Positions 1-47,835 of a stretch of 64,000 nt of DNA are shown here, one piece after another. The stretch comes from Isurus oxyrinchus (taxonomy: Eukaryota): assembly GCA_026770705.1 (NCBI GenBank), contig JANJGN010000009.1, positions 61,256,001-61,320,000 of the forward strand, written 5' to 3'. The position numbers and the translations under genes were made by a program. Under the pieces are notes generated by a model, which saw only the letters and a list, made by a program, of their open reading frames with translations, ran no database searches and was not told the origin of the DNA. Each line of letters begins with the position of its first letter. Within the stretch, counting starts at the first letter, position 1.

Positions 1-2086
1 CCCTGTCAACGACCGTGGGTGGAAAACCTCGGTTAAGGAAGAAGGAGGACATGTCAGAGGAACTGTTTTTGAAGGTAGCATCATCGGAACAGATGCGACG
101 AAGGCGAAGGAACTGGGAGAATGGGATGGAGTCCTTACAGGAAGCGGGGTGTGAGGAGCTGTAGTCGAGGTAGCTGTGGGAGTCGGTGGGTTTGTAGTGG
201 ATATTGGTGGACAGTCTATCACCAGAGATTGAGACAGAGAGGTCAAGGAAGGGAAGGGAAGTGTCAGAGATGGACCACGTGAAAATGATGGAGGGGTGGA
301 GATTGGAAGCAAAATTAATAAATTTTTCCAAGTCCCGACGAGAGCATGAAGCAGCACCGAAGTAATCATCGATGTACCGGAGAAAAAGTTGTGGAAGGGG
401 GCCGGGGTAGGACTGCAACAAGGAATGTTCCACATATCCCATAAAGAGACAGGCATAGCTGGGGCCCATGCGGGTACCCATAGCCACACCTTTTATTTGG
501 AGAAAGTGAGAGGAGTTGAAGGAGAAATTGTTCAACGTGAGAACAAGTTCAGCCAGACGGAGGAGAGTAGTGGTGGATGGGGATTGTTCGGGCCTCTGTT
601 CGAGGAAGAAGCTAAGGGCCCTCAGACCATCCTGGTGGGGGATGGAGGTGTAGAGGGATTGGACGTCCATGGTGAAGAGGAAGCGGTTGGAGCCAGGGAA
701 CTGGAAATTGTTGATGTGACGTAAGGTGTCAGAGGAATCACGGATGTAGGTGGGAAGGGACTGGACAAGGGGAGAGAGAAGGGAGTCAAGATAACGAGAA
801 ATGAGTTCTGTGGGGCAGGAGCAAGCTGAGACGATCGGTCTACCAGGGCAGTTCTGTTTGTGGATTTTGGGTAGGAGATAGAAGCGGGCCGTCCGAGGTT
901 GGGCGACTATCAGGTTGGAAGCTGTGGGAGGGAGATCCCCAGAGGAGATGAGGTCAGTGACAGTCCTGGAAACAATGGCTTGATGTTCAGTGGTGGGGTC
1001 ATGGTCCAGGGAGAGGTAGGAGGAAGTGTCTGCGAGTTGACGCTCAGCCTCCGCGAGGTAGAGGTCAGTGCGCCAGACAACAACAGCACCACCCTTGTCA
1101 GCGGGTTTGATGACAATGTCAGGGTTGGACCTGAGAGAATGGAGTGCAGTAAGTTCAGAGAGAGACAGGTTAGAATGGGTGAGAGGAGCAGAGAAATTGA
1201 GACGACTAATGTCGCGCCGACAGTTCTCAATGAAAAGATCAAGAGAAGGTAAGAATCCAGAGGGAGGGGTCCAGGTGGAGGGAGAATATTGGAGATGGGT
1301 AAAAGGATCTGTTGAACTGGGAGAGGACTCCTGCCCAAAGAAGTGAGCCCGGAGACGAAGACGGCGAAAGAAGAGTTCAACATCATGCCGAGCCCGAAAT
1401 TCATTGAGGTGAGGGCGTAAGGGTATGAAACTAAGTCCTTTGCTGAGCACTGAACGTTCAGCATCGGAGAGGGGAAGGTCAGGGGGTATAGTGAATACAC
1501 GGCTGGGGCTGGGATTGGAAGATGGGGTGGGGACGGAGGGACAGGCTGGGGTGGAGGGTCCTAGATGGGTGTTGGTGTCGATGAGTTGTTGGAGCTTGCG
1601 TTCCTTAGCAGTTGAGAGAAAGAGAAAAAGTTTCTTGTTGAGGCGTCGGATGAGCCGAAGGATAAAATGAAACTGGGGGCACGCGCAGCTTTGAAAAAGG
1701 GTACGGCGGTGCTGCTGGAGGGAAAGGTCGAGTGTGTTCATATGGCGGCGCATGGCACTGAGTGTGGATTTCAGAATGTGACGGGAACAGCAGTCTGAGA
1801 AACGTTTTATGTCCCGGAGATACCGGTAATCCTGGGTGGGTTCGAAAGATGAGGGGTGGAATTTCAGTTGAAATCCACGTGGGGAAAGTCGGAGACGGAG
1901 GCAGTCACTGAGAAAGGAGATATGGCTGTGAAAGCGGGTTTTAGTAAACACCTTGTCAAACACTAGGAGGGAAATGGAAAGCAAAGAAGGTGAACAAGGC
2001 AACAGAGAGATACGGAAATCTTGTCGCAGAGAGGAACAGAACTTCTTCAAGGAGATAGGCATTTCTTGAAGAGCAGTGGCAGTCAA
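1..2086 (-). CDS. Second tandem copy of the PLE RT/GIY-YIG ORF (5' part; runs off the window start)
   Basis: Sequence 1-2257 matches 3335-5591 at offset 3334. Only difference noticed is 1380 A vs 4714 G (HDVE vs HDAE). Confidence 0.93.
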   Translation of the reverse strand, partial: MTATALQEMPISLKKFCSSLRQDFRISLLPCSPSLLSISLLVFDKVFTKTRFHSHISFLSDCLRLRLSPRGFQLKFHPSSFEPTQDYRYLRDIKRFSDCCSRHILKSTLSAMRRHMNTLDLSLQQHRRTLFQSCACPQFHFILRLIRRLNKKLFLFLSTAKERKLQQLIDTNTHLGPSTPACPSVPTPSSNPSPSRVFTIPPDLPLSDAERSVLSKGLSFIPLRPHLNEFRARHDVELFFRRLRLRAHFFGQESSPSSTDPFTHLQYSPSTWTPPSGFLPSLDLFIENCRRDISRLNFSAPLTHSNLSLSELTALHSLRSNPDIVIKPADKGGAVVVWRTDLYLAEAERQLADTSSYLSLDHDPTTEHQAIVSRTVTDLISSGDLPPTASNLIVAQPRTARFYLLPKIHKQNCPGRPIVSACSCPTELISRYLDSLLSPLVQSLPTYIRDSSDTLRHINNFQFPGSNRFLFTMDVQSLYTSIPHQDGLRALSFFLEQRPEQSPSTTTLLRLAELVLTLNNFSFNSSHFLQIKGVAMGTRMGPSYACLFMGYVEHSLLQSYPGPLPQLFLRYIDDYFGAASCSRRDLEKFINFASNLHPSIIFTWSISDTSLPFLDLSVSISGDRLSTNIHYKPTDSHSYLDYSSSHPASCKDSIPFSQFLRLRRICSDDATFKNSSSDMSSFFLNRGFPPTVVDR

Positions 2087-2197
2087 TTAAACACAGAGTT
2101 GAAAACAAAGAAAACTGCGGATGCTGGAAATCTAAAACAAAAACAGAATTACCTGGAAAAACTCAGTAGGTCTGGCAGCATCGGCGGAGAAGAAAAG

Positions 2198-2236
2198 AGT
2201 TGACGTTTCGAGTCCTCATGACCCTTCGACAGAACT
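2198..2236 (-). ncRNA. Minimal type-I hammerhead ribozyme motif (variant core CUGUCGA)
   Basis: Minus strand AGTT-CTGTCGA-A-GGGTC-ATGAG-GACTC-GAAA-CGTC-AACT: stem I AGUU/AACU, stem II GGGUC/GACUC, GAAA, palindromic ACGU in place of stem III, GUC cleavage triplet. This layout is typical of PLE HHRs. Confidence 0.8.
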
Positions 2237-2639
2237 TGATTTCGAGTCCAGGAAAGAGTTGAAATATAATCTGGTTTAAGGTGTGTGGGGGGGGGGGGGG
2301 GGGGAAGGAGAGAGAGAGAGAGACAGAGGTGCTTGTGTAGACAAACAAGCAGTGATAGAAGCAGATCATCAAAAGATGTCAGTAACAATGGTGCAAAAGA
2401 ACACATAGGTGTTAAAGTTAAAGTTGGTGATATTATCTAAACGAATGTGCTAATTAAGAATGGATGGTAGGGCACTCAAGGTACAGCTCTAGTGGGGGTG
2501 GGGGGAGCATAAAGGATTTTAAAATATTTAAAAATAATGGAAATAGGTGGGAAAAGAAAAATCTATAAAATTTATAGGGAAAAAAAAAAGGGGGAAAAAA
2601 AGGGGGAAACAGAAAGGGGGTGGGGATGGGGGAGGGAGC

Positions 2640-5420
2640 TCACGACCTAAAGTTATTGAATTCAATATTCAGACCGGAAGGCTGTAAGGTGCCTAGTCGG
2701 AAGATGAGGTGTTGTTCCTCCAGTTTGCGTTGGGCTTCACTGGAACAATGCAGTAAGCCAAGGACAGACATGTGGGCAAGAGAGCAGGGTGGAGTGTTAA
2801 AATGGCAAGCCACAGGGAGGTTTGGGTCATTCTTGCGGACAGACCGCAGGTGTTCTGCAAAGCGGTCGCCCAGTTTACGTTTGGTCTCTCCAATGTAGAG
2901 GAGACCACATTGGGAGCAACGAATGCAGTAGACTAAGTTGGGGGAAATGCAAGTGAAATGCTGCTTCACTTGAAAGGAATGTTTGGGCCCTTGGACGGTG
3001 AGGAGAGAGGAAGTGAAGGGGCAGGTGTTACATCTTTTGCGTGGGCATGGGGTGGTGCCATAGGAGGGGGTTGAGGAGTAGGGGGTGATGGAGGAGTGGA
3101 CCAGGGTGTCCTGGAGGGAGCGATCCCTACGGAATGCCGATAAGGGGGGTGAAGGGAAGATGTGTTTGGTGGTGGCATCATGCTGGAGTTGGCGGAAATG
3201 GCGGAGGATGATCCTTTGAATGCGGAGGCTGGTGGGGTGATAAGTGAGGACAAGGGGGACCCTATCATGTTTCTGGGAGGGAGGAGAAGGCGTGAGGGCG
3301 GATGCGCGGGAGATGGGCCGGACACGGTTGAGGGCCCTGTCAACGACCGTGGGTGGAAAACCTCGGTTAAGGAAGAAGGAGGACATGTCAGAGGAACTGT
3401 TTTTGAAGGTAGCATCATCGGAACAGATGCGACGAAGGCGAAGGAACTGGGAGAATGGGATGGAGTCCTTACAGGAAGCGGGGTGTGAGGAGCTGTAGTC
3501 GAGGTAGCTGTGGGAGTCGGTGGGTTTGTAGTGGATATTGGTGGACAGTCTATCACCAGAGATTGAGACAGAGAGGTCAAGGAAGGGAAGGGAAGTGTCA
3601 GAGATGGACCACGTGAAAATGATGGAGGGGTGGAGATTGGAAGCAAAATTAATAAATTTTTCCAAGTCCCGACGAGAGCATGAAGCAGCACCGAAGTAAT
3701 CATCGATGTACCGGAGAAAAAGTTGTGGAAGGGGGCCGGGGTAGGACTGCAACAAGGAATGTTCCACATATCCCATAAAGAGACAGGCATAGCTGGGGCC
3801 CATGCGGGTACCCATAGCCACACCTTTTATTTGGAGAAAGTGAGAGGAGTTGAAGGAGAAATTGTTCAACGTGAGAACAAGTTCAGCCAGACGGAGGAGA
3901 GTAGTGGTGGATGGGGATTGTTCGGGCCTCTGTTCGAGGAAGAAGCTAAGGGCCCTCAGACCATCCTGGTGGGGGATGGAGGTGTAGAGGGATTGGACGT
4001 CCATGGTGAAGAGGAAGCGGTTGGAGCCAGGGAACTGGAAATTGTTGATGTGACGTAAGGTGTCAGAGGAATCACGGATGTAGGTGGGAAGGGACTGGAC
4101 AAGGGGAGAGAGAAGGGAGTCAAGATAACGAGAAATGAGTTCTGTGGGGCAGGAGCAAGCTGAGACGATCGGTCTACCAGGGCAGTTCTGTTTGTGGATT
4201 TTGGGTAGGAGATAGAAGCGGGCCGTCCGAGGTTGGGCGACTATCAGGTTGGAAGCTGTGGGAGGGAGATCCCCAGAGGAGATGAGGTCAGTGACAGTCC
4301 TGGAAACAATGGCTTGATGTTCAGTGGTGGGGTCATGGTCCAGGGAGAGGTAGGAGGAAGTGTCTGCGAGTTGACGCTCAGCCTCCGCGAGGTAGAGGTC
4401 AGTGCGCCAGACAACAACAGCACCACCCTTGTCAGCGGGTTTGATGACAATGTCAGGGTTGGACCTGAGAGAATGGAGTGCAGTAAGTTCAGAGAGAGAC
4501 AGGTTAGAATGGGTGAGAGGAGCAGAGAAATTGAGACGACTAATGTCGCGCCGACAGTTCTCAATGAAAAGATCAAGAGAAGGTAAGAATCCAGAGGGAG
4601 GGGTCCAGGTGGAGGGAGAATATTGGAGATGGGTAAAAGGATCTGTTGAACTGGGAGAGGACTCCTGCCCAAAGAAGTGAGCCCGGAGACGAAGACGGCG
4701 AAAGAAGAGTTCAGCATCATGCCGAGCCCGAAATTCATTGAGGTGAGGGCGTAAGGGTATGAAACTAAGTCCTTTGCTGAGCACTGAACGTTCAGCATCG
4801 GAGAGGGGAAGGTCAGGGGGTATAGTGAATACACGGCTGGGGCTGGGATTGGAAGATGGGGTGGGGACGGAGGGACAGGCTGGGGTGGAGGGTCCTAGAT
4901 GGGTGTTGGTGTCGATGAGTTGTTGGAGCTTGCGTTCCTTAGCAGTTGAGAGAAAGAGAAAAAGTTTCTTGTTGAGGCGTCGGATGAGCCGAAGGATAAA
5001 ATGAAACTGGGGGCACGCGCAGCTTTGAAAAAGGGTACGGCGGTGCTGCTGGAGGGAAAGGTCGAGTGTGTTCATATGGCGGCGCATGGCACTGAGTGTG
5101 GATTTCAGAATGTGACGGGAACAGCAGTCTGAGAAACGTTTTATGTCCCGGAGATACCGGTAATCCTGGGTGGGTTCGAAAGATGAGGGGTGGAATTTCA
5201 GTTGAAATCCACGTGGGGAAAGTCGGAGACGGAGGCAGTCACTGAGAAAGGAGATATGGCTGTGAAAGCGGGTTTTAGTAAACACCTTGTCAAACACTAG
5301 GAGGGAAATGGAAAGCAAAGAAGGTGAACAAGGCAACAGAGAGATACGGAAATCTTGTCGCAGAGAGGAACAGAACTTCTTCAAGGAGATAGGCATTTCT
5401 TGAAGAGCAGTGGCAGTCAA
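2640..5420 (-). CDS. Penelope-like element (Neptune-type) polyprotein: reverse transcriptase + Cys-rich linker + GIY-YIG endonuclease, intact
   Basis: 926-codon open frame (TTG at 5420, first ATG at 5396 giving 918 aa). PLE RT motifs PADKGGAVVVW, FYLLPKIHK, GRPIVS, TMDVQSLYTSIP, QIKGVAMGTRMGPSYA, RYIDD, LPFLDL, YKPTDSHSYL; linker CPRKRCNTC; GIY-YIG LVYCIRCSQCGLLYIGETKRKLGDRFAEH...LEEQHLI..LGTLQPSGLN. Confidence 0.95.
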   Translation of the reverse strand: MTATALQEMPISLKKFCSSLRQDFRISLLPCSPSLLSISLLVFDKVFTKTRFHSHISFLSDCLRLRLSPRGFQLKFHPSSFEPTQDYRYLRDIKRFSDCCSRHILKSTLSAMRRHMNTLDLSLQQHRRTLFQSCACPQFHFILRLIRRLNKKLFLFLSTAKERKLQQLIDTNTHLGPSTPACPSVPTPSSNPSPSRVFTIPPDLPLSDAERSVLSKGLSFIPLRPHLNEFRARHDAELFFRRLRLRAHFFGQESSPSSTDPFTHLQYSPSTWTPPSGFLPSLDLFIENCRRDISRLNFSAPLTHSNLSLSELTALHSLRSNPDIVIKPADKGGAVVVWRTDLYLAEAERQLADTSSYLSLDHDPTTEHQAIVSRTVTDLISSGDLPPTASNLIVAQPRTARFYLLPKIHKQNCPGRPIVSACSCPTELISRYLDSLLSPLVQSLPTYIRDSSDTLRHINNFQFPGSNRFLFTMDVQSLYTSIPHQDGLRALSFFLEQRPEQSPSTTTLLRLAELVLTLNNFSFNSSHFLQIKGVAMGTRMGPSYACLFMGYVEHSLLQSYPGPLPQLFLRYIDDYFGAASCSRRDLEKFINFASNLHPSIIFTWSISDTSLPFLDLSVSISGDRLSTNIHYKPTDSHSYLDYSSSHPASCKDSIPFSQFLRLRRICSDDATFKNSSSDMSSFFLNRGFPPTVVDRALNRVRPISRASALTPSPPSQKHDRVPLVLTYHPTSLRIQRIILRHFRQLQHDATTKHIFPSPPLSAFRRDRSLQDTLVHSSITPYSSTPSYGTTPCPRKRCNTCPFTSSLLTVQGPKHSFQVKQHFTCISPNLVYCIRCSQCGLLYIGETKRKLGDRFAEHLRSVRKNDPNLPVACHFNTPPCSLAHMSVLGLLHCSSEAQRKLEEQHLIFRLGTLQPSGLNIEFNNFRS

Positions 5421-5531
5421 TTAAACACAGAGTTGAAAACAAAGAAAACTGCGGATGCTGGAAATCTAAAACAAAAACAGAATTACCTGGAAAAACTCAG
5501 TAGGTCTGGCAGCATCGGCGGAGAAGAAAAG

Positions 5532-5570
5532 AGTTGACGTTTCGAGTCCTCATGACCCTTCGACAGAACT
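5532..5570 (-). ncRNA. Minimal type-I hammerhead ribozyme motif (copy in second unit)
   Basis: Identical to 2198-2236. Confidence 0.8.
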
Positions 5571-8468
5571 TGATTTCGAGTCCAGGAAAGATCCTAATTA
5601 CGTGCATTTTTACAATCCAGCTGTGACAAATTCAATTCAACCATAGAAACCTTCTTAGAATCGGTCTCTCCAATAAATAGTCTGAAGATTTTACTTTTCT
5701 CAGCGCCTGCCTCACACTACATCACACCTAATCGTCCAGTTGATATAATCCTGGAATGCTGCAGCAATATTCCCTGGTGACGTGGATGTTCCTGTCTTCT
5801 GCACGGGTGTTTTGCCTGCCTTTTCAGAGGCAGGCTAAGCAAACACAATTTTAGGGCCATGAGGTACTTTGGTCTGCACTGATTGCTGTTAGGTAAGCAA
5901 ACCTGGCAGCTACTTTGCACCATTCATGCCACTTAATGGGCCAATTGTACTGCAGACTAGCAGCAGATGACTCAGTCAGTGTTAAATGTTTGGTGCGAGT
6001 AACATTGAAGACTTGGAAAACTATCAAAAAGAAAACTTGACAAATAATTGAACTATTCCACAAACAATTGCCACAGCTGGTGCTCAGCGAAACATCATTA
6101 ACAAAAGTATCCTTGAAAAGTGTGTTGGTTACTGCTTTTAACCAGTTTTTCTCCAGAGAGACTTTCTAAAAGCATTTTTTAAAGTATTTAATTAAGGTTA
6201 GGGAATTTTAACTGCAGCTCTAATTCCAGAGCAGAAGGGTTTTACTCTGTATCTGAATGTGTTATATATGGCCTGGGAGTTTTGATGCATAGGAAATAGG
6301 AAGACTTTCCCAAGCAGTTACATTCCTCAGCTTGCTAATTTTATTAATTCTAAAGAGAAGAATAGGGAGATAGAGGGCAAGAAGGAAATGATAAAAGTTA
6401 TGAAGTGGGATGGAGTGATCTGGCAACACCCATCATCTAGGCTCAGACAACAATAGATACGACAATACTCCTTCAAACTGATGCATGTTCATAACCTGCA
6501 AAAAATTCCTCATGGATGGCACATCATAAATAGCATGCATTTTAACAAATTGTCTGACTGCCACAGTTGACTGCTGTTAGATACTAAGGTTATCTTGTAA
6601 ATATTTTATTTAATTAGATTAAAACTGCTGTCTGTTGTGGAAAGAGAAATAATGTGGTGAGGTTAATAATGAAGATGGGATTGCTAGGTAGGCCTAAGAC
6701 CAGATGGAAAGATTTGGTGGCAAGAAACATAAACACAATGGAATAGGGTGAAGAATGAGTGATTGACAGGAGATAATGGAGAAGAGCAATCAACCAGAGC
6801 TGTGGCGATCCCAAGTAAAATAGGAGAAGCCAAGAGAAGAACAACAACAAGATTAAAACTGCTATGCTTCAATATGGAAAGGCACAAACCAAAATGGAAT
6901 TAAACATCCAGTTTACCATTTTTGTATATCTTATTTATTTTATTGTCTCAGCCATTATTGTTCATATTAAGCTTCTGTAATGAGCTGATGGAGTGTATTT
7001 ATGCCATAACTTTCTAACTTCCATTGCTCTTCACTTTACCACCGTCAGTAAAAGTCAATTTTTTTTTTAGATTTTAACAAGCGGATCATCTAAAGAAAAC
7101 ATAATATCCTAGGAAGGTTGTTTCCAACTGGTCAGCTCCATATACATTTGTTATGTTCTTACTATGGATTCGCTCAGCTCAGCGAACATGGTTGCACACC
7201 TATCTACTGAGGGGTGAGTTGATAAACTATACAATGTGGATGAAGAGACCGTTGTGAAGTGAAACACATGCTGTTTATTCATATAAGCAAAAGAGCACAA
7301 TCACATGCTTGCTTCTCAAACCAGGTCAACTGTCAGGAATTTTGGGCAGATGACTCCTGGGAGGGAGGCCTCAGATAAATCATCTGATGTCATAGAACTA
7401 CGACGTTCGACATTTTTAAAGAAGCCTCCAGAGAGACTGAATTTGTAAATAGTTTATTTCTTTAAATAGTTGATATATTGTAATGATTGTAATTTGTACT
7501 TTTGAGTAAAGGAAGAGGTTTGAAGTAATCTGATTTGCAATACACCTTTAAGAAAATGCGAGCAGATTGACCACATGATTGTATTACCCAATTGCTGTGT
7601 AGCACGGACCACATTGTTAATCAGTAGTTTAGAATGGGTTCTCCATTGTGAATGCCAGCTTCAGCATCTTGCTGAGGTCTAAATTCATTCCTGACAACAA
7701 TCTTTTTTGAATGACATCTTCATTAATACCAGATACTAATCGGTCTCTTAACATGTCGTTAATCAATGTCTAGAATTAACAAAGTTCTGTCAATTGTTTC
7801 AAGGCAGCTACATAACAAGCGACTGTCTCTCCAGGGACGTGACACCTCAAATTAAATTTAAAACGCAGCATTGTTACTGAGGATTTCAGATTAAATTGAC
7901 TTTTCACAATGTTTACAACACATCAATGTTCTTGGAATCTGGGGCGTTGGGTGCCATTAGACTACGAATTAGGCTTTTACTGCCACATATTGATAAGAGA
8001 ATCGCCTGTCTTTTCTCCTCCCCTGCTATGCCGTTAGCCAAAAAGAATGTAAGGCGTTCAGTGTACTGTGATCAGCTATTGGTGGTCTGATCAAATGGTT
8101 CGACACAGCCAAAGTGCAGCACATTGAAGGGAGATAGCTCCAATGACTATGATGAAGGCTGCACTTACAAGCACCCGCAAGGTATGGCTGATTTGCTTCA
8201 GGTTAATTTCCGTGGCTTGCCATGGTGTCATCGAGTAGTTTTGTTTTGCCTTGTCACCAGTTGTTATGTTCTTACTATGGACTCACTCTGCTCACCAAAC
8301 ATGGCTGCACACCTATCTACCAAGGGGCGAGTTGGTTAACTAAATGATGTGGATGAAGAGACTGTTGTGAAGTGAAACATGTTGTTTATTCATATAAGCA
8401 ACAGAGCACAAAAACAGAATTACCTGAAAAAACTCAGCAGGTCTGGCAGCATTGACAGAGAAGAAAAG

Positions 8469-8507
8469 AGTTGACATTTCGAGTCCTCATGACCCTTCAA
8501 CAGAACT
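8469..8507 (-). ncRNA. Hammerhead motif (CUGUUGA core)
   Basis: AGTT CTGTTGA AGGGTCATGAGGACTC GAAA TGTC AACT. Confidence 0.65.
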
Positions 8508-8968
8508 AGGTGAATCCAAGGATGGGGTGAAATAGAAGGTGTGTGTGTGTGTGTGTTTATGTGTGTGTGTGTGGCCGGGGCGGGGGGTGGGGGGGGGGGA
8601 GAAGTGGAGGGGGGGTGTGGTTGTAGGGACAAGCAAGCACTAATAGAAGCAGATCATCAAAAGACGTCACAGACAACAGAAAAAAAGAAAACATAGGTGT
8701 TGAAGTTGGTGATATATATCTAAACGCATGTGCAAACACCAGGAGAGAAATGGAAAGCAATGAAGGTGAGCAGGGCAAAAGAGAGATACGGAAATCTTGT
8801 CGCAGAGACGAACAGAACTTCTTCAAGGAAGGCATTTCTTGAAGAGCAGTGGCAGTCAATTAAACACAGAGATAAAAACAAAAAACTGCGGATGCTGGAA
8901 ATCCAAAACAAAAACAGAATTACCTGGAAAAACTCAGCAGGTCTGGCAGCATCGGCGGAGAAGAAAAG

Positions 8969-9007
8969 AGTTGATGTTTCGAGTCCTCATGACCCTTCAA
9001 CAGAACT
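8969..9007 (-). ncRNA. Hammerhead motif (CUGUUGA core)
   Basis: AGTT CTGTTGA AGGGTCATGAGGACTC GAAA CATC AACT. Confidence 0.6.
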
Positions 9008-9420
9008 AGGTGAATCCAAGGAAAGGTGTGTTTGTGTGCGTGTGTGCGGGTGGGTGGGGGGGGGGGGGGTGGAGAGAAGTGGAGGGGGGTGTGTGGTTGT
9101 AGGGACAAGCAAGTAGTAATAGAAGCAGATCATCAAAAGATGTCACAGACAACAGAACAAAAGAACACATAGAACACATAGCAGCACAAACACATACCTG
9201 CTACTCAAACCAGAACCTATTCTAAAGTACTGATTAACAATGTAGCCCGTGCTACACAGCAATTGGTTAATACAATCATGTGGTCAATCTGCTCTCATTC
9301 TCTTAAAGGTGTATTTCATCTCAGATTACCACAACATTGTTGATGGATTCAGAGAACAGTAATGCTGCCAACGAACATTACTGTGAAATCAGTTCAACTT
9401 GTCAAAAGTGAATTATTTGA

Positions 9421-12728: not shown

Positions 12729-15700
12729 TGTAATAAAATGGCATGCTTTCTACATTTAAGAGAATGTAGTTAGTTGACTGTATTGAAGAATCACTACACA
12801 GCAGGGGCTTCTTGGGTAACTGGAAGTCTAGAGCGGGAGGTGATTAAAGAAGCACACATAGTGTTAGTATTCTGTTCTTAGTTCCAATAAACTACCAGTG
12901 TTTGTTCAGTCAATCCGTCTCTCTGCCTATATTGTTTTCAAGCACCAACTAATGTGTTAATATCAAAGGTGCAGCTAGCATTCACCAGACAAAGCAAACC
13001 TGATAACCAAAAACATAAAACTGGCAACGAGGGTAAACTGGATCAGTTGACAGCAATCAAGAAAGCCGTGGTAAGCCAGCTACATTACATCACCACTACA
13101 TTGAAAGCCGTTTGAAAGCACTGTTTTCCTTGGTCATCAAGTATGCCGTGGTTTGGGCATCTTGAAACATTCAAACTCTTTTCCGATGACTGACTGGTCT
13201 CATTACATCAAATGCCTAGTGTTCTTCTTTACCGTGAACTACATTGTGGGGGAAGACAAGAAGAGGGCAATTCTTGTCCACATGTGGGAGCAAAGTGTGT
13301 GGGCTAATCCGCAGCCTCACATCACCTAACGCCCACGATACAAAGACTTTGGACAAGATAGTAAATATTTTTTAAAAACATCTGAAGCCAAAGACTTCAG
13401 TCATCATGGAGCTTTTTAAATTCAATTTGAGAATTAGGCTTCCGGGAGAGACAATTACTGGCTATGTAGCTGCTTTAAGGGAATTAACAGAATATTGTGA
13501 ATTCGTAACTTGAATTAATGACATGTTGAGAGACCGACTGATATGCAGAATTGAGGATGATATTCAAAAGTGATTGCTATCTGAAACTAATCTAGACTTC
13601 AGCAAGGCATTAGAATTGGCAACAGCCATGGGGAGCACTGTTAGGGACTTGGAGGCAATGAAAGAAACAAAACATCTTGTAGGGCGGGAAGGGCCAGTAA
13701 CAAAAGGCGCAAAAATCTCAGACACGACATTAATGAAAGAAATGCATCCAGGCAGCCTGCAGGCGATCGACAGTTCAGAAATATCGAATACTTCTTCTTC
13801 CACCGCAATGGTAAGATAATGCAGCACTGGCAAGATAGGCTGAGACAGCATTTTAAAAACAAAGGTAGAAATCGCAAAATCTGTTTTGTTGAAGAACCAG
13901 AGGATGCAAAATCTGACACCTATTCATTATACGACCTGAAAATGGGCAGAACTGAGCCAATCCAGGTAGCCAATTGAGTCAATGAACAACCCATCAAGAT
14001 GGAAGCTAATACTAGGGCATCAATGTTTGTCATAGGAGAACATACGTTCAGAAACTTGAATAAAGGAGTCCTTCCTTTAAGTTTTTGAAGAATCAGACAC
14101 TAAATTAAAACGATATACAGGTGAAGAAAATAAGAGTGAAAGGAATATGTCAAGTCCTGGTGCAGTATGGGGATCTGTCTGCAAATTTACCCATGAGAGT
14201 AGTAGCTGGGGCAGGCCCCAGTTTAATTGTTGGTAACTGACTCAAAAAGATTAAATTGCAGTGGGCCAAGATTTTTCAAATCAGAATGAGAAACTTACAG
14301 GAATTGTTACAAAAGTACGCTTCCTTTTACACAGACAAGCTAAAAAGTATTTGTGGACTACAAGCCAAAATCCATGTAGACCCTAACGCAACCCCCAGGT
14401 TTATCAAAGCTAGACCAGTCCCTTATGCTCTACAGGACAAGGTAGAGGCTAAGATAAACAGGCTGGAAAATTTCTTACAACCGGTGCAATTTTCTGAGTG
14501 GGCGGCACCCATAGTATCCATACTGAAGCCAGACCAAAGTGTTTGCTTATGCGATGACTATAACTCAACTGTGAACAGAGTGGCCAAACCTGATAGACAT
14601 CTGATACTGAAGATTGACAACTTATATTTTAAATTGGCAGTGGGCATCACATATTCAAAACTTGACATGAGCCACCCCTACTAGCAGGTAGAGATGGATG
14701 AAGGCTCTAAGGAATTCATGGCCATCAATACACATTGAGGATTGCATCAATATATTCGACTACCCTTTGAGGTCTCGTCATCATCTGCTATTTTCCAGCG
14801 TACCATGGAAAATTGGCTTCTGGGACTGCCCTATATTGTTGTTTATCTGGATGATGTCTTAATCACTGGAAGAACTGATGAAGAACACTTAGCTAATTTG
14901 GAGCAAGTGCTGAAACGCTTCTCACAAGTGGTGGTGTGCTTGAAATGAGAGAAATATCTTTTCCAAGCCAAAGAGGTAGTTTACTTGGGCCGTAAGGTTG
15001 ATGCACAGGGCCTGCATCCCGTGGAAGAAAAGATCAATGCTAATCGTGAGGCGCCTACATCAGGACACACTACTGAACCAGAGGTCTTCTTAGGCATGAT
15101 AAACTACTATGGGTGATTTCTCCTAAATCTATCAACCGTACTGGCTCTGTTATACGCATTGCTTAAGAAAAAACATAAATGGATTTGGCAAGCTGTGCAC
15201 CAGGATGTGTTTCTGAAGGTAAAGCAATGGTTAAGATCATCAGCCCTACTGGTCCACTTTGACCCAAAGAAAGAATCAATTTTAACTTGTGACACTTCCT
15301 CTTATGGAGTAGGGGCTGTACTTTCACATTGGATGGCGGATGGCTCTGAACAACCCATTGGTTATATACCTCACATGCTCAGTGCTGCAGAGAGACGATA
15401 TTCTCAAATCAAGAAGGAGGTTTTGTCTGTTAGTGTTTGGTGTTCGGAAATTCCATCAATGCCTTACCATTTTCACATTATATCTGACCACAAGCCTCTG
15501 CTGGGATTATTTGGGGTGGATAAGGTGATACCCCCGCATCATATCTGCTCGCGACCAGAGGTGTGCACTGATATTGCTTACGAATACATTTTTACTCACC
15601 GATCAGGAAGCCAGATCACACATGCTGATGCGCTGAGCCGCCTCTCCCTGCCAGATAACGTGAAGGTTTCAATTCCCCAGGAACTTGTCTTAGCACTAAG

Positions 15701-16544
15701 TTTTTTGAATTCCGCCCCTGTCCAGGCCAAACAGATCCATGAATGGACAAGCCGAAATCCACTTTTATCTCACATCTGGGAGCAGGTCTTGAACTAATAA
15801 AGAGGCATCTCCGCCCCCACCTAAGTCTTATCAGGCCGAATTTACTGGGGAGGGTGAAGAGAAGCCAAGAGGCTTAGAAGACCAGACGTGATGGTCTTAA
15901 TAATGAAAGAAATTTCATAGTGGGAAACACAGTTCTCATGAAGAACTCTGGAAATGGGCCCAATTGGCTATTAGGTGAAGTGATTGAAGAGAGACAGTCC
16001 TACAAGAAGGAATGCCGTCATCATTTGTGTTTGAATCTACACCGCATGTGGAAGAAACGTCATATGATTTGGTAGTACTAGTGGGGCATGTTGGACTCGA
16101 GAGTGAAAGACACAAACTTGTCCACCATAGAGCCTGGTAGACAGTTAACCCCTGAGAAGTGAGTCTTGGAAAAACTCAAAATAGTTATTCTTGTAAATAA
16201 TTGAGATGTTGCGATGCTTGTCAATTGTACTTTCAACTAAAAGGGGAAGGATGTGGTAAAGTGGAGTGCTAGTACATTTAAGTGAATGTAATTAGTTGAC
16301 CATGTAACTGTATTGACCAATTGCTACACAGCAAGGGATTCCTGGGTGACTGGAAGTCTCAAGCCGGAGGTGATTGAAGAAGCACACATCGTGTTAGCGC
16401 TCTGTTCTTAGTTCCAATAAACTACCAGTTTTGATCAGCTAATCGGTCTCTCTGTATTATTTCAAGCACCAACTAATGTGTTAATATCAAGGGCGCAGTT
16501 AGTGTTCGCCGGAGGAAGCGAATCTGAAAATCAAAAACATAAAA
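12729..16544 (+). mobile_element. Decayed Gypsy LTR retrotransposon (gag-PR-RT-RNaseH; integrase largely deleted)
   Basis: LTRs 12729-13020 and 16252-16544; TSD CAACT; PBS-like TGGCAACGAG; PPT AAAGGGGAAGGA; RT FSEWAAPIV, AIFQRTME, VVYLDDVLITG; RNaseH LTCDTSSYGVGAVLSH, SDHKPL, HADALSRL; many stops and frameshifts. Confidence 0.93.
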
Positions 16545-21869: not shown

Positions 21870-23115
21870 GATGGAACAGAAAATGCTGGAAGTAATCAGG
21901 AAGTCAGACAGCACCCTTAGAGAGAGAAGCAGAGTTAACATTTCAGGTCAATCAGAACTGGAAGATGTTGCAGATCTAACATGTTTTAAGTAAGTACAGA
22001 GGGTGAGAAATGCAAGGAAGGGAGAAAAGAACAAAAGGGAAGAACAGCTTTAGGGTGGAAAGCAGGAGTGATTAAATGATAAAAGGGATGATGATGCAAT
22101 GCGAAAAGCAGGTGGTAATGGGTCATGTAAAGATACAGAGTATGTGTCTAGGGGAAATGCAACTGGCAACAGCAGAACCATTACCAGCATCTGCTGTTCG
22201 AAAAATTGGGAGCAATGGTTACGATCTGAACTTATTGAACTCAATGTTGAGTCTGGAAGGCTGTAATACGCCTAGTAAAAAGTTGAGATGATGATTCTCA
22301 AGCTTCTATTGGGCTTCATTAGAATAGGAAGTCAGAGTGGGAGTGGGGTGGAGAATTAAAATGAATTTTGACCAGAATCTCAGAGACATGTTTATAGATT
22401 GAACAGAAATGTTCAGCAAAGGGATCATCTTATCTGCACTTGGTCTCCCCAGTGTATAGGAGACCATGTTGTGAGCAGCAAATACAGTATAATATAGTGA
22501 AAAAAAGTACAAGTGAATTGCTGTTTTACCTGGAAAGCATGTTTGGGACCCTGAATGGTGAGAAGAGAGGAACTAAAATGGCAGGCATTGGATCTCCTGC
22601 CCTTGCATGGGCAAGTGTCATGGGAAGGGAAGCAGGTGTTGGGTGTGATTGAAGAGAGAACCAGAGTAAAGTAGAGGCATTGATCTCTTTGGATACTTAA
22701 AGGGGAAGGGAAGATATGTTTGGTGGTGGCTTCACCCTGGAAGGTGGCAGAAATGACGGAGTATGATCTGTTTAATGCGAAGGTTGGTATGGAGGTTATG
22801 TAAAAAGGAAGATATATCGGATGCATGCGTGTGGAAAGATACATCATCAGAACAGATGCAAAAGAGATGGAGAAACTGGGAAAATGGAGTAAAGTCCTTA
22901 CAGGAAGCAGGGTGGGAGGAAGGGTGATCAAGGAGGTTCTGGAGTCTGTGAGCTTCTTGTAGGTATCGGTTAACAGCTTATCTTTTCTTATCTAAAAGTC
23001 AAGGTATGGAAGGGACAAATTGGAAGGGATCACACTAAGGCAAGGGAGGAATGGAATTAGAAGCAAATTTGATTAAATTTTCCAGTTCAGGGGAGGAACA
23101 GTATGGTCATCACTG
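21870..23115 (-). mobile_element. Older, diverged 5'-truncated PLE (RT thumb + GIY-YIG relic + 3'UTR)
   Basis: Degenerate ATTKHIFPSPLS, IQGPKHAFQVKQQFTC; colinear with 2640-3700. An inverted pseudo-LTR follows at ~23120-23200 and 23941-24000. Confidence 0.85.
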
Positions 23116-25780: not shown

Positions 25781-28009
25781 GGCTGGGAGTTTCCATGCCT
25801 GCTGCTGTGCTGGACAAGATGGCGAGAAGGACAAAAATCAGTTTCACAAGGTTGTGAAACCAGTTTGTAATTTTCTGATCAGCCTGTCGATGGTGGGCTG
25901 CATTTCCTGCCATCAGACATTGGGAACCTCATTGTAATACATCAGCATATCAGCATAAGGCTAGACCGCCGGACTCACCCCTCCCCGCACCACCCCCTGC
26001 TGGATCACTCACCCACGTCTGTGGGAAAACACGCTGACATGTTTCACAACAGCATATATAAGGTGTGCACTTGGCAGTCTGCGCTTCATTCGGGATTTCA
26101 AGGTTTGTTTGCCTACCTTGCTTCGGTCAGCACTTGATCATCAGTGCCAGGTTTCACAGACAGCACCACATCACTTTTAGGGGGGGTCACAGATAGGTCT
26201 CTACCTACCAGATCAGCAAAATGTGGGTAAATTTTCAACAGCTGCAGGGCCAGGGTTTGCTTGGGGGGAGGGGAAGAAGTGGCCTCAGGCAAGGGAAGAG
26301 GCTGCAGGATGAGTGCTGTACTGGGGAAAGAGGGTGTGTGTGGGAGCACATGTTGATCTGTGCAACTGGCCTCAAGATGGTAATGCCTGAGTAGGGAGTC
26401 TCCAGAGGAGATGGGACCAGATGAACTTGAGGGTATGTGTGTGAGAATGGATGGTAATGTCCCTTGAGCTGGCAATAAGTGAGATGCCAGTGAATGTGTG
26501 ATGTGCTTGAGTGTGCGATCGGATGAGATGGTTGCCATATCCTGGCTGCACGGGTAAGATCATCCGTCCTCTATCTTCATTGGCTGGCCAACCTCTTCTG
26601 TGCAGCTTTGGCACTGATCACCACTGTCATCGCCTACCAAGCCAGAGCGGTAATGTTGCTGCCCCTCCTGTGGCCATAGCAGGGGTCGAGGACATCACAG
26701 CGGTGCTCCACAGCATCCAAAAAGCGCTCAAGGGCTGCAGTCGTCTTGCTTTTTGGGGCCACGTTTTCTTTGCTGCAGTCCTGGGCTGGAAGCATTGTGT
26801 GGCTATACTTTAAATGTGGTGCCTGGCGTGATAAAGCGGTGAGATGACAGTGTGGCAGAAAAACCGGAGACCGCCCGCCATCGAAACAGGGTGAATCCCT
26901 GGAATCCCGCCAACTCCAGCATGATGCCACCACCAAATACATCTTCCCATCCCCCCCCCCCGACGGCATTCCATAGGGATCGTTCCCTCCGGGACATCCT
27001 GGTCCACTCCTCCATCACCCCCTACACCTCAACCCCCACCTATGGCACCTCCCCATGCCCACGCAAAAGATGCAACACCTGCCCCTTCACTTCCTCTCTC
27101 CTCATCGTCCAAGGGCCCAAACACTCCTTTCAATTGAAGCAGCATTTCACTTGCATTTCCCCCAACTTAGTCTCCTCTACAGGAGAGACCAAACGTAAAC
27201 TGGGCCACCGCTTTGCAGAACACCTGTGATCTGTCCGCAAGAAAGACCCAAACCTCCCTGTCGCTTGCCATTTTAACACTCCACCCTGCTCTCTTGCCCA
27301 CATGTCTGTCCTTGGCTTGCTGCATTGTTCCAGTGAAGCCCAACGCAAACTGGAGGAACAGCACCTCATCTTCCGACTAGGCACTTTACAGCCTTCCGGA
27401 CTGAATATTGAATTCAACAACTTTAGACCTTGAGCTCCCTCCTCCATCCCCACCCCCTTTCTGTTTCTTCCCCCTTCCTTTTGTTTTTTCCAGTAATTTA
27501 TATAGATTTTTTTCCCACCTATTTCCATTATTTTTAAATCTACATCTTTTATGCCCTGTTAGTCTTTCCACCCCACCCCCACTAGAGCTATACCTTGCGT
27601 GTCCTGCCATCCATTCTTAATTAGCACATTCATTTAGATAATATCACTACCTTCAACACCTCTTTGTTCTTCTGTCTGTGACATCTTTTGATTATCTGCT
27701 CCTATCACTGCTTGCTTGTCCCTACAACCGCCCCCCCCCCCCCCCTTAAACCAGCTTATATTTCCCTCCTCTCCTAATATTCACTCAGTTCTGTTGAAGG
27801 GTCATTAGGACTCAAAATGTCAACTCTTTTCTTCTCCGCTGATGCTGCCAGACCTGCTGAGTTTTTCCAGGTAATTCGGTTTTTGTTTTGAATCCCTGGA
27901 ATGCCTAATTAATGCAGCAGGTTTGGGACAATACAGCATGAAAAGCTGCCATTGCAGCCAGCAAAATGTGATTTCCCTGCCCGCTACCGCACTTAGTTCA
28001 AATCTGCTC
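25781..28009 (-). mobile_element. Non-autonomous Harbinger-type element with Myb/SANT relic, interrupted by a PLE
   Basis: Reverse-homologous to 58430-59691; 3-bp TSD ATG; relic ALERFLDAVEHRCDVLDP..RRGSNITALAW. Confidence 0.75.
26906..27888 (+). mobile_element. 5'-truncated PLE copy (GIY-YIG region, 3'UTR, HHR relic at 27787-27825)
   Basis: High similarity to the reverse complement of ~2135-3195; flanked by the direct repeat TGAATCCCTGGAAT (26892-26905 and 27889-27902). Confidence 0.93.
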
Positions 28010-33410: not shown

Positions 33411-33892
33411 GTAAGAAGTGAGAATGCCACAATTTGGGTGGATTTCTACCTGGTGCGACTTCCAACAGAAATTCTTTATGATGCTGCACAGGAGAGTCTA
33501 TAGCAAGCTTTGGTGGTGCTCGTGGCCGCCCCTGGAAATTCTGCTGAGCACGTGCCTGATAGGCTTGGCAGCTGAGAGCTGCCATATGTCGTAACAGGTC
33601 TTAGGAAGACCAAGTGTGGACAGTTCCAGAGATGATTGATTACCTTTCAAATCAGGCCCTAACCGTGTTCAGTGGCACTGTTTTTTCATCCTATGCCAGC
33701 TTCAGGGGTCGCTGTTTCTCTGAATACAATTCATCGGGTCAAAGTGCTTCTGTTGCACCGTTACAGATGGGACTGCCCAACTCAATTAAGGAAATTACTT
33801 GGATATCCTAAATTTCAGATGGGGTCAAGTCTGGGTCTCTGTGGTGATCAGATGTTCTGCTGGTGATGGTGCAGGGCTCCAAGAATTTAGAC

Positions 33893-34102
33893 AAAAACAA
33901 AAATACCTGGAAAAACTCAGCAGATCTGATAGCGTCTGCGGAGAGGAATACAGTTAATGTTTAGAGTCCATATGAAGAGTCTTCATATGGACTCGAAATG
34001 TCAACTGTATTCCTCTCTGCAGATGCTGTCAGACCTGCTGAGTTTTTCCAGATATTTTTGTTTTTGTCTAGATTTCCAGCATCCACAGTATTTTGCTTTT
34101 AT
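33893..34102. mobile_element. Fold-back PLE pseudo-LTR insert
   Basis: Long inverted arms centred on ATATGAAGAGTCTTCATAT; flanked by the 16-bp direct repeat CTCCAAGAATTTAGAC (33877-33892 and 34103-34118). Confidence 0.85.
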
Positions 34103-34261
34103 CTCCAAGAATTTAGACCTGTTATGTTTTTAATTACTGAAATGTAAAGCTACTTTGCACATTTGTATAACAGCTATGATCTAATTAATTTAAGTGATGC
34201 ATTAAAGAGCTGTTAGGTTGAAAAAATTATTTTAACTGACTTAGTTTGAGCAATTTAACGT

Positions 34262-45168: not shown

Positions 45169-47660
45169 TTTAGAATCTATTACTTTCTCCTTTACACTTA
45201 TCCAAGCTATTAACTTACTATTCCCTACTCTAGTGCTATATATCTCCTCCTGTATTCTGTGCACCTTGATATTCCTTTTGGATATTATCCCCTGTTTCCC
45301 ATACCCCTGCCGAGTTAGTTTAACCCCTCCCCAACAGCACTAGCAAAACACCCAGCAAAGAACTCTGTCCTAGCTCTTTTCAGGTGCAGCCCATTTGGTT
45401 TGTATAGGTCCCACCTTCCTCAGAGCAGTCCCAATGCTGCATGCATCTAAAGCCTGCCCTCCTGCATCATCTTGCCAGTCACACATTAATCTGCCTTATC
45501 CTCTTATTTCTGTACTCACTTGCACATGGTACTGGGAGTAATCTGGAGATAACTACTTTTGAAGTCCTGTTTGCTAATTTTCCACCTAACTCCCTAAATT
45601 TAGACTGCAGGACCACATCCCTCTTTCTACCTATGTCGTTGTTACTGATGTAGACCAGGACTGTTGATTGTTCACTCTCCCCCTTCAAGGTGCTTTTCAG
45701 CCCTTCAGTAACATCTTGATCCAGGCACCAGGGAGGCAAAACAATATTTTAGATTTATGTCTGCAGCCACAGAAACATCTGTCTATTCCCCTAAGTATTG
45801 AATCACCTATTACTATCACTCTTCCAGACTTTCTTGAACTCGCAGTGCAGCTGAGCCATGTGAGGATTGCTATCTGAAAAGAAAGAATATGCAAGGTAAT
45901 GGGGATAAGGCAGGGAAGTGGGACTAGGTAGAATGCTTCTTCAATTAGCCAGTGCAGGCTTGATAGGCAGAATTGCTTCCTTCTGCACTGTAAAGATTCT
46001 GTGCTTCTGCAGTGCCATGGATTTCGCTCTGGCTGCATTCCCCAGATGAACGATCACTCTCAACAATATTCAGAGCTGAATGCTTGTTGGACAGTGGATG
46101 CACTCAGAGGACAACTGCTGTACCTGCTTGTTTCTTTTTGACTGTCTGGTGATCACCCATTCTCTCCCTGCCTGCATAATCTTAAGTTTTGGGGTGACTA
46201 CATCTATAAATGTGCAATCCATATAGCTTTCAGCCTCACTGATGCAGTGCAACGACACCAGCTGCTGCTTAAGTTCCAAAACCTGAAGCTCAGGCTGCTG
46301 CAACTAATGCCACTTGTTGCACAAAAGATGATCCAGGACATGGGAAGCATCCAGGAGTTCCCACATCATACAGGATGTTGCACTCTCGAGGTTGGAGAAG
46401 CCCTGCCATGTCTCTATGTATTAACTGATAACCTTGTTACTAAGAATAAATTTTGCTGCTGGGAATAAACCTTACCAATACTAATAAAGCTTTACCAATA
46501 CTCATAAAAATTACAAATATCAATAAATCTTATGAATACTGAGAAACCCTACCAAAACTTAGTACACCTTATTAGTGCTAATAAACCTTACTTAAGAATA
46601 AAAGATAAGGCTCACCAGCCAATCACTTGTTATTTGCTACTAATAATTAATATTTTTAACAGTTTTAAACTTCCAGTTGTTTAGACTCAGTCCCTAAGCA
46701 GCAATACTCGCCAGCCGATCACCACCTGATTTTCTTGTGATGTCACTCTTCACTTCTTTCAAACTCAAGGCATTCTTGCTCTTTTCTGCCTTTCTTCCCA
46801 AAAGTAAGTGGTGGAGGCTTCACTCCTTGGGTTGTATTTATCCACTCCCTAGCTGTGTATCTCCTGCAAGTGCAGCTCTCCTCTCGAAGTTAAAGAAGAA
46901 AGAATATCCAAATTATATTTTAGTAGATTTTTCATCAATGTTACATATGCCATCAGAGCAAACAAAATAATCATTTTCTATATGAATAACACTAAGAAAC
47001 ATTTGAAGCAAGTAATTAACTCTTCAGTCTATACATTTTGAACTACATTTTGAAAGCAATGCTGAGCTACATGCATAATAGGTTTGAAGTTACTGGTGTG
47101 AGAAAATCAGTTTCCAGTTTGAGTGAAGGTTTTACTGATGAAGTTAAGAAAAAGTTAAATTTATAATTTTCCAGTTGTCAGTAAAGCTGTTGCCTCTTTT
47201 CTTCTGATTAGGAAATAGAAGTTGGATAGAAAGCTGAGTTCTGCCAGTCAGAATTGTCCACCACACGTGAAACCAGATGGAAATATCTATTGCTGTTTTC
47301 GAAGGCTGAATTTAGTCAAATCTGGTGCCAGTAAGGTCTTACTGATAATGCATACTTACTCTTAATAGATATTGAATTGCAAAGATTGTTTGTTGGTGTA
47401 GTTTAACCATTGCACCATTGTCTTTTGTTAAATCGAGGACAATTGTTCCATTGGAAGGAAGGAATGAGATGTAACATCATTCAGTAACAAAAAAGATGAA
47501 GCAAAAATAGAAAGATACCAGGGTAAAAGGCTTTGTAAACTAAAAATGAATTATCTTAGTTTGTCAGAAAGATAGCATCCGTGGAGGTGTAGTTGAGTGG
47601 GAAGGTGATCACAGTGACCTGTGAGTTGATTGTTATACAGATGGACATTATTCTAAACAA

Positions 47661-47835
47661 AACAAAAACAGAATTACCTGGAAAAACCCAGCAGGTCTGG
47701 CAGCATCGGCGGAGAAGAAAAGAGTTGACGTTTCGAGTCCTCACGACCCTTCGACAGATGCTGCCAGACCTGCTGGGTTTTTCCAGGTAATTCTGTTTTT
47801 GTTTTGGATTTCCAGCATCCGCAGTTTTTTTTGTT
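47661..47835. mobile_element. Young fold-back PLE insert containing an HHR motif (47723-47756, minus)
   Basis: Near-perfect inverted arms; flanked by the direct repeat ATTATTCTAAACAA (47647-47660 and 47836-47849). Confidence 0.9.

What the first reader, a model, noticed from the sequence alone, without database searches (positions are those of the whole stretch)
1..5591. Near-identical tandem array of an intact, probably still mobile Penelope element punctuated by hammerheads
Seen: a 3334-bp unit, one substitution noticed over 2257 bp of overlap, an uninterrupted RT/GIY-YIG ORF, one HHR per unit, and the array's 5' end only ~20 nt upstream of the HHR. Known: PLEs form partial tandems and carry HHRs in their pseudo-LTRs. 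Inference: HHR-to-HHR cleavage would release an exact unit-length RNA with the ORF intact, and the tandem could be the product of rolling reverse transcription of a circular monomer. Intact PLEs in vertebrates are poorly characterised.
Basis: partly seen in the sequence, partly recalled or inferred. Interest (0 to 1): 0.7.

Follow-up and report, generated by a model that had tools for sequence, protein, structure and literature searches.

The report
Young Penelope tandem; paired two-end priming
This is an ordinary young two-unit insertion of an intact Penelope-like jumping gene in a shark-like genome, but in every mirror-image sister insertion examined the two halves end at one each of two fixed points, which suggests the enzyme likely copies its RNA onto both ends of one DNA cut; the proposed ribozyme-made RNA circle remains untested and looks less likely.

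Summary
The whole insertion is two units plus a 121-bp pLTR (about 6.8 kb) inside an 11-bp TSD. It has an intact 918-aa RT/GIY-YIG ORF of Neptune/Nematis type and belongs to a family of near-identical copies.

The rolling-circle idea is already published (PMC4209133) and only partly supported. For it: units share source alleles, RT runs through the pLTR, and one-off mini-unit junctions are reiterated. Against a hammerhead-defined circle: the core carries A6U, 0 of 66 arms stop at the cleavage site, mini-unit junctions lie elsewhere, and 5 of 21 arrays show partial allele sharing.

The stronger result is family-wide. In 41 of 41 head-to-head insertions one arm ends at the distal site (U153-171) and the other at or before the proximal site (U130 or less); 9 of these were predicted beforehand. 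TSDs are mostly 14-15 bp, both arms share source alleles, and fold-back of one cDNA fails in 9 of 14 tests. This likely reflects paired priming of both cut ends.

The one-sided tail is known qualitatively. This scan noted two-end priming before on other DNA of this genome (e1-9587277). Present-day mobility is not shown.

The parts
5591..5601 (.). Target-site duplication ATCCTAATTAC, 5' side of the element; the second copy lies left of the window at -1206..-1196
5397..5590 (-). 5' pLTR/5'UTR of the upstream unit (U2-195; U1 = window 5591 counted downward)
5533..5569 (-). Minimal type I hammerhead-like motif: 3-bp stem I, core CUGUCGA (A6U), extra A, 5-bp stem II, GAAAC-GUC with palindromic ACGU (would need a dimer); putative cut 5536/5535
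   Evidence: read from the sequence; no Rfam match; A6U in all 232 young copies
5428..5495 (-). Two similar ~33-nt modules ending in U-rich tracts; insertion 3' ends cluster at the end of each (proximal U118-131, distal U153-171), inferred RT start sites
   Evidence: interpretation from PMC11167929
2640..5396 (-). Intact 918-aa ORF: DKG, RT motifs (YIDD), CX4CxxC linker, GIY-YIG with CCHH and R/H/E/N residues
2258..2639 (-). 3'UTR with CT-repeat and poly(C) tract; locus-private allele at U3321 in both units
2063..2257 (-). Internal pLTR with the second hammerhead-like motif (2199-2235)
1..2062 (-). 5' part of the second ORF; the unit continues to window -1075, followed by the 121-bp terminal pLTR (proximal end, no tail) to -1196
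47659..47835 (.). Separate tiny head-to-head pLTR-only insertion of the same family; arm ends U124 and U154, TSD about 13-14 bp
33891..34105 (.). Separate older head-to-head pLTR-only insertion (81-83% alike); arm ends U121 and U162, with TSD
8408..9172 (-). Separate older mini-unit tandem (about 500-bp period, U304 joined to about U3142), retrozyme-like

Best explanation
This is a TSD-flanked, two-unit insertion of a young, intact Neptune/Nematis-type Penelope-like retrotransposon, likely made by target-primed reverse transcription that started inside the pLTR and likely read one template unit twice without needing hammerhead cleavage. Shown: anatomy, intact ORF, two fixed 3' end sites, strict one-proximal/one-distal pairing in head-to-head copies, a narrow TSD length there, shared source alleles, and near-memoryless 5' truncation across unit junctions. 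Inferred: a dimeric protein binds two tandem U-rich modules in the pLTR RNA about 36 nt apart and nicks both target strands about 14 bp apart. Each 3'-OH is extended from its own start site. If both cDNAs survive they are joined head to head, so the tail is on exactly one arm; if one is lost, a direct insertion like the window's results, with a shorter and more variable TSD. Inferred with less certainty: the tandem comes from repeated reading of one unit-length template (a circle closed away from the hammerhead, or a precise end-to-end or pLTR-to-pLTR jump), with some long arrays also passing through multi-unit RNAs or DNA-level duplication. My odds: paired priming about 0.75, hammerhead-independent re-reading about 0.5.
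For: Pairing 31 of 31; after a written prediction, 9 of 9 further cases, 8 unseen and 1 with one end already seen; total 41 of 41. Independence would give at most 0.5 per case; direct insertions use the distal end in 17 of 55. Small pLTR-only palindromes of 71-100% identity: 14 of 15 by the same threshold. Two direct insertions carry 8-16-nt inverted stubs of the other site. TSD found in 40 of 41 head-to-head insertions, 28 of them 14-15 bp, versus 41 of 55 direct ones with mode 12-13. Fold-back of one cDNA is violated in 9 of 14 testable cases, and arm 5' ends lie within 50 nt in 6 of 28 versus 1.0 by permutation. Divergence is 0.046% within tandems, 0.088% between arms and 0.244% between insertions; family markers agree in 56 of 57 and 35 of 36 comparisons; 24 of 62 multi-copy insertions share a private allele. 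Drop-off is 0.57 per kb with no sharp 5' boundary. Mini-unit junctions are repeated 5 and 3 times inside single TSD-flanked insertions and were not found elsewhere among the scored candidates (40 of 64; 30 of 30). In vitro, the anole Poseidon protein nicks and extends both strands, has two start sites, is predicted to be a dimer and does not need hammerhead activity (PMC11167929).
Against: PMC11167929 saw no difference in start site between top and bottom strand and did not test pairing. The 145 threshold was set after seeing the bimodal ends. 8 of 41 proximal-class arms stop short of the cluster (U68-115), whereas no direct insertion ends below U118, so some ends are trimmed or made otherwise. 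One small palindrome fell at U144 (74% identity). 5 of 21 insertions with three or more overlapping copies show partial allele sharing that a single pass over one template cannot give; in C3:19523029 both first-pass arms share an allele the second pass lacks. The direct test of re-reading versus a linear multimer had too little power (9,100 nt, 11 insertions). Gene conversion between arms could also homogenise alleles. 5' ends are 2-5 times enriched in U31-196 (17 versus about 6.5 expected). Samples are the top 40 per search, biased to long, near-identical copies. No RNA evidence.
Confidence: 0.5

Rival explanations
1. One reading: dimeric hammerheads cleave tandem transcripts into exact 3334-nt monomers that are ligated to circles and reverse-transcribed by rolling. 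This is compatible with paired priming.
For: Precise, hammerhead-intact unit junctions in the junctions listed (output partly cut); most arms pass the pLTR (25 of 30); flat drop-off; units share source alleles; the palindromic ACGU fits dimeric folding in tandems (PMC4209133). A ligated junction leaves no trace in DNA.
Against: Core A6U in all 232 young copies, while several older relatives keep A6; a natural A6C core cleaves at under 0.1 per min (PMC3088659); minimal hammerheads cleave poorly even as dimers; 0 of 66 arms stop at U57-60, so cleaved linear RNA is not a common template; reiterated mini-units are joined at U315/U327, not at the hammerhead; in the anole element hammerhead mutants insert normally and no reads end at the site; 5 partial-sharing arrays.
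Confidence: 0.2
2. Linear, uncleaved read-through RNA from multi-unit master arrays is copied once and truncated at random (the scenario sketched in PMC11167929).
For: Partial allele sharing with a single switch point along the order of synthesis in 5 insertions, notably C3:19523029 and C26:18521001; arrays of up to about 3.8 units exist; hammerhead activity is dispensable in vitro.
Against: No sharp pile-up of 5' ends at any fixed position, which a promoter in each pLTR would give; private alleles fixed in all units of several arrays need a re-copying step somewhere; no master was found for two reiterated mini-unit junctions (limited candidate sets).
Confidence: 0.25
3. Head-to-head copies arise by fold-back (self-priming) of one cDNA, or on an antisense template, with the ends then cut by the endonuclease (PMC3846280; PMC8557442).
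For: Near-symmetric arm junctions in 6 of 28; shared private alleles between arms; 8 of 41 short arms; one inverted arm that does not reach the pLTR (C2:214927501).
Against: In 9 of 14 single-unit cases the arm reaching further 5' lacks the tail that the other arm carries, which a fold-back copy of that arm cannot supply; many junctions are hundreds to thousands of bases asymmetric; it does not by itself predict 41 of 41 pairing.
Confidence: 0.1
4. The window's second unit is a DNA-level duplication after insertion, or an assembly artefact.
For: 3.3-kb direct repeats are substrates for unequal exchange (general knowledge); partial sharing in adjacent units of 4 long arrays fits later duplication; no long read spanning this locus was seen.
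Against: The units differ (99.91%: two substitutions and one poly(C) base); one TSD flanks the whole array; dozens of loci show 1.x-unit tandems with random 5' ends directly against a TSD, which duplication of whole units does not give.
Confidence: 0.07

Closest known systems
EN+ Penelope-like elements of the Neptune/Nematis type (PMC8557442, passages; PMC3846280, passages)
   Same: [quoted passage not shown]
   Different: Those papers call the tail optional and ascribe it to endonuclease resolution or self-priming. Here it is on exactly one arm in 41 of 41 head-to-head copies, and simple fold-back fails in 9 of 14.
PAc, Poseidon of Anolis carolinensis (Frangieh et al. 2024, PMC11167929; parts 1-2 of 4, passages, supplement text search)
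   Same: Two internal start sites one tail apart, downstream of the hammerhead; tandem loci; both strands nicked and extended in vitro; hammerhead not needed.
   Different: Different clade (Penelope/Poseidon elements lack the Zn-finger-like linker, PMC8557442). Start sites here end U-rich modules in the 5'UTR rather than an AC-rich stem-loop inside the ORF. The parts read and searched do not discuss inverted insertions or pairing of the sites.
Minimal hammerheads of metazoan PLEs and the circle model (Cervera and De la Pena 2014, PMC4209133; parts 1-2 of 4)
   Same: Extra base after A9, G10.1-C11.1 pair, palindromic 15.2-16.2 without helix III; the paper proposes circles and more-than-unit reverse transcription.
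   Different: This family's core has U at A6; reiterated mini-units are joined away from the hammerhead.
Non-LTR retrozymes as PLE derivatives (bioRxiv 10.64898/2026.07.22.740005; parts 1-3 of 5)
   Same: Short tandem hammerhead-bearing units derived from pLTRs; average 363 bp in the one chondrichthyan sampled.
   Different: Here 350-500-bp mini-units are direct internal deletions of the autonomous element with the same paired ends; two young ones were seen at one locus only.

Membership tests
EN+ Penelope-like element | Single ORF with RT and C-terminal GIY-YIG endonuclease | tested here: met
   918 aa; RVT_1 E 6e-8; GIY-YIG E 9e-4, below Pfam cut-off; motifs conserved in 18 or more of 20 aligned sequences
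EN+ Penelope-like element | DKG motif and CCHH motif in the endonuclease | tested here: met
   KPADKGG at 319; C..C inside the GIY-YIG core, H at 849 and 865 (features from PMC8557442)
EN+ Penelope-like element | pLTRs from partial tandems, inverted 5' copies, tail, TSD | tested here: met
Neptune/Nematis clades | CX2-5CxxC linker between RT and EN | tested here: met
   CPRKRCNTC at 784
Neptune (versus Nematis) | RT phylogenetic placement with named references | not tested
   No named clade references among the hits; the preprint found Neptune and Poseidon in vertebrates
Penelope/Poseidon clade | Absence of the linker Zn-finger-like motif | tested here: not met
   The motif is present
Minimal type I hammerhead | Stems I and II, extra base after A9, G10.1-C11.1, palindromic 15.2-16.2, NUH | tested here: met
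   Read by eye from the sequence against PMC4209133; unconstrained folding does not give it
Minimal type I hammerhead | Canonical core CUGANGA | tested here: not met
   CUGUCGA in all 232 young copies; no Rfam match; consensus per PMC3088659
Minimal type I hammerhead | Self-cleavage | not testable with these tools
   Needs an assay; contigs cannot show RNA ends
Currently mobile element | Intact ORFs and near-identical dispersed copies | tested here: met
   56 of 64 ORF-spanning copies open; 0.24% between insertions; 348 first-look candidates for the ORF start
Currently mobile element | Insertion polymorphism or new insertions within the species | tested here: inconclusive
   Only one DNA sample of organism A was listed. 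A contig of organism B begins matching at the TSD with 625 unmatched bases before it, likely the empty site; this was not confirmed against the left flank.

The most novel reading that the evidence does not exclude
Penelope-like elements integrate by obligate paired priming. A dimer docks on two tandem RNA modules, nicks both target strands about 14 bp apart and extends each end from its own start site, on one template that is read round and round although its ends are not set by the hammerhead. This one mechanism would yield the tandem, the inverted copy, the one-sided tail and newborn retrozyme-like mini-units.
Probability: 0.35. Interest if true: 0.75.

Novelty: new member of a known kind. 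Interest (0 to 1): 0.52.

Why it matters
How PLEs form their tandem and inverted insertions is described as still undefined (PMC8557442). This family offers many intact, near-identical copies with clean junctions. It turns the qualitative 'tail on one end' into a strict 41-of-41 rule that links the in vitro findings of PMC11167929 (two start sites, both strands extended, predicted dimer) into one testable mechanism, in a second PLE clade. It also argues that tandems and retrozyme-like mini-units can arise with a core-variant hammerhead and junctions away from it. The window's own locus is ordinary.

Tried and rejected
Rfam found no hammerhead at gathering or at E<=10. NCBIfam and PDB sequence searches were empty or uninformative. 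Unconstrained folding of the pLTR is no better than shuffles (z +1.5).

Three own-genome searches returned nothing because their words were too common, so no 3'-anchored held-out sample was obtained that way.

'Full-length copies start at U1' was rejected: two apparent cases extend about 17-20 nt further upstream. 'The proximal arm always reaches further' was rejected (mixed). Ordered unit-specific alleles recurring across loci were not found, apart from two CpG sites and one G>C site on different haplotypes. Canonical splicing as the source of mini-unit junctions was rejected by inspection. Horizontal transfer to organism B is not claimed: its flank is only about 1.3% different.

RNA-guessed runs X15 and X16 cover the element but not the unique flank. 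They are contigs of mixed family copies, so they give no expression, strand or RNA-end evidence. The empty site in organism B was not confirmed from the left flank, and heterozygosity of the source sample was not determined.

Dating: copy-private substitutions are 3.3e-4 per site. At 7e-10 per generation (PMC10587355, abstract; another species) that is an upper bound of about 5e5 generations, since RT and assembly errors are included, so near-identity does not prove present activity.
Full report
OBSERVATION. Window 1-2257 repeats at 3335-5591 with one substitution. The element lies on the minus strand; I number it as U, with U1 = window 5591 counted downward. The ORF (2640-5396, 918 aa) is open. 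It matches RVT_1 and, below cut-off, GIY-YIG. It keeps the DKG, YIDD, CCHH and catalytic residues conserved among 19 homologues, with one departure (F680 for Y). It has the CX4CxxC linker that marks Neptune and Nematis and is absent in Penelope/Poseidon (PMC8557442 passages). The closest named homologue is from the shark Chiloscyllium punctatum, 69% identical. The left neighbour shows the whole insertion: two units (3334 and 3333 bp) plus a 121-bp pLTR, between two copies of the 11-bp TSD ATCCTAATTAC. The units differ by two substitutions and one poly(C) base and share an allele (U3321) not seen in the other junctions displayed (output partly cut).

HAMMERHEAD. The motif at U23-59 has the layout of metazoan minimal hammerheads, which must dimerise and cleave poorly (PMC4209133). 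Its core is CUGUCGA: U at A6 in all 232 young copies, while several of 15 older relatives keep A6. A natural A6C variant cleaves at under 0.1 per minute (PMC3088659 passages). My search for A6U hammerheads listed only one paper, on twister ribozymes, which I did not read. Rfam has no match. Activity is untested.

FAMILY. Own-genome searches returned 40 or more copies at 99-100% for each query that rang (348 first-look candidates for the ORF start). I mapped 99 insertions. They are the top-scoring hits, so they are biased to long, young copies. 56 of 64 ORF-spanning copies in the first set are open. The 3' ends fall in two clusters, U118-131 and U153-171, each at the end of a similar ~33-nt U-rich module. 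This matches the two RT start sites and the tail of the anole element (PMC11167929). The window's insertion has the proximal end.

TANDEMS. 5' ends are spread with a drop-off of 0.57 per kb over 136 arms (six complex or mini-unit loci left out). None of 66 arms at risk ends at U57-60. Only 0.15 would be expected by chance, so this excludes only a large pile-up. There is a mild excess at U31-196 (17 versus about 6.5) and U3250-3334 (9 versus 4.8). In a sample not conditioned on upstream sequence, 25 of 30 arms that reach the ORF start continue past U1. Copies within an insertion come from one source: divergence is 0.046% (66 tandem pairs) and 0.088% (51 arm pairs) against 0.244% between insertions; family markers agree in 56 of 57 and 35 of 36 comparisons; 24 of 62 insertions share a private allele. 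Two internally deleted mini-units (U327|U3247 and U315|U3245) are repeated five and three times across both arms of single TSD-flanked insertions, and their junctions were found nowhere else among 40 of 64 and 30 of 30 scored candidates. Nine of ten further loci picked from those two searches join the same U315 point to at least five other acceptors (the second search selects for this breakpoint). These facts favour repeated reading of one template whose junction is not the hammerhead site. Against a single pass over one monomer: 5 of 21 insertions with three or more overlapping copies share an allele among only some copies (a sixth row, from a neighbouring insertion, was dropped). In C3:19523029 the two first-pass arms agree against the second pass, as a linear multimer predicts. 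The direct trio test was underpowered (12 all-derived, 2/3/3 single, 1 first-pass-only). Circle, jump and linear multimer cannot be separated from DNA alone. The circle model itself was proposed in PMC4209133.

PAIRED ENDS. Head-to-head insertions, in which both arms end outward in a pLTR, obey a strict rule: one arm ends at U153-171 and the other at U130 or less. This held in 31 of 31. After I wrote the prediction down, it held in 9 of 9 more (8 unseen, 1 half seen), plus one case seen earlier: 41 of 41. Direct insertions have the distal end in 17 of 55. Dropped or reclassed: C13:21968001 (gap, nested), two insertions cut by the stretch edge, C5:121906001 (other arm beyond a gap) and C2:214927501 (inverted arm not reaching the pLTR); the last two were counted as direct. 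Among small pLTR-only palindromes in the flanks, including two in the window, 14 of 15 follow the rule (8 of 23 rows dropped as internal junctions, duplicates or already counted; the exception is U144 in a 74% copy; one row's partner was corrected). TSDs are found in 40 of 41 head-to-head insertions, 28 of them 14-15 bp including microhomology, versus 41 of 55 direct ones with mode 12-13. Fold-back of one cDNA requires the arm reaching further 5' to carry the tail; it does not in 9 of 14 testable cases. Weak points: the threshold was set after seeing the data, 8 of 41 proximal-class arms end early (U68-115), and conversion between arms cannot be excluded.

MECHANISM. Most likely a dimer binds the two modules, nicks both strands about 14 bp apart and extends each 3' end from its own site. 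Both cDNAs joined give the palindrome with one tail; one lost gives a direct copy such as the window's. The dimer and both-strand extension are taken from the anole work, not shown here.

PRIOR KNOWLEDGE. [quoted passage not shown] I found no paper stating obligate pairing in searches. The library lacks most subscription papers; Evgen'ev and Arkhipova 2005 and Arkhipova 2006 were not seen. The supplements of PMC11167929 gave only 7,325 characters of text (figures unreadable), and those of the bioRxiv preprint are closed; either could bear on this. I stated the paired-priming reading before any look-up of earlier notes.

ACTIVITY. In organism B a 2,219-nt contig matches the right flank from the TSD onward (18 differences over about 1.4 kb) and has 625 unmatched bases before it, likely the empty site. 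This was not confirmed. No within-species polymorphism data exist here, and shark mutation rates are low (PMC10587355 abstract), so 'young' is supported and 'still mobile' is open.

VERDICT. A real, ordinary locus of a known kind. The family supplies a sharp, testable rule for PLE integration.

Noticed in passing
L214-L219, L221-L223; G000:C3:89926323-89927348: Internally deleted mini-units of different ages share one donor breakpoint at U315 joined to at least six acceptors in the pyrimidine tract, without clear microhomology or splice signals; this may mark a fixed RNA 3' end. The search that found them selects for this breakpoint.
   Followed up: partly
window 8408-9172: Older retrozyme-like mini-tandem (about 500-bp period, two hammerhead motifs with decayed palindromes), 2.8 kb from the insertion.
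   Followed up: partly
window 33891-34105 and 47659-47835: Tiny head-to-head pLTR-only insertions with TSDs that obey the one-tail rule.
   Followed up: yes
G000:C30:3256079-3256425: A small pLTR palindrome has inserted into a young copy of the same element, with its own TSD.
   Followed up: no
window 5570-5591 (U1-22): The 22 nt upstream of the hammerhead repeat two pieces of it (GGACTCGAAA and TCAACTCTTT), like a degenerate second motif; the older subfamily at 8500-8530 differs here.
   Followed up: no
window 5438-5596: Summed contig depth over the pLTR is more than ten times that over the 5' part of the ORF in DNA runs X2 and X5, suggesting very abundant pLTR-only copies; depth is no copy number.
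   Followed up: no
window 26907-27889 and 22221-22920: Older 5'-truncated Penelope-like fragments (86% and 73-80% alike).
   Followed up: no
window 14241-15797: Decayed reading frames that look by eye like LTR-retrotransposon RT and RNase H (recalled resemblance, not searched).
   Followed up: no
several loci (U1783, U948, U2511, U2613): Identical 5' truncation points recur in two independent insertions each; possible RT stall or microhomology hot spots.
   Followed up: no
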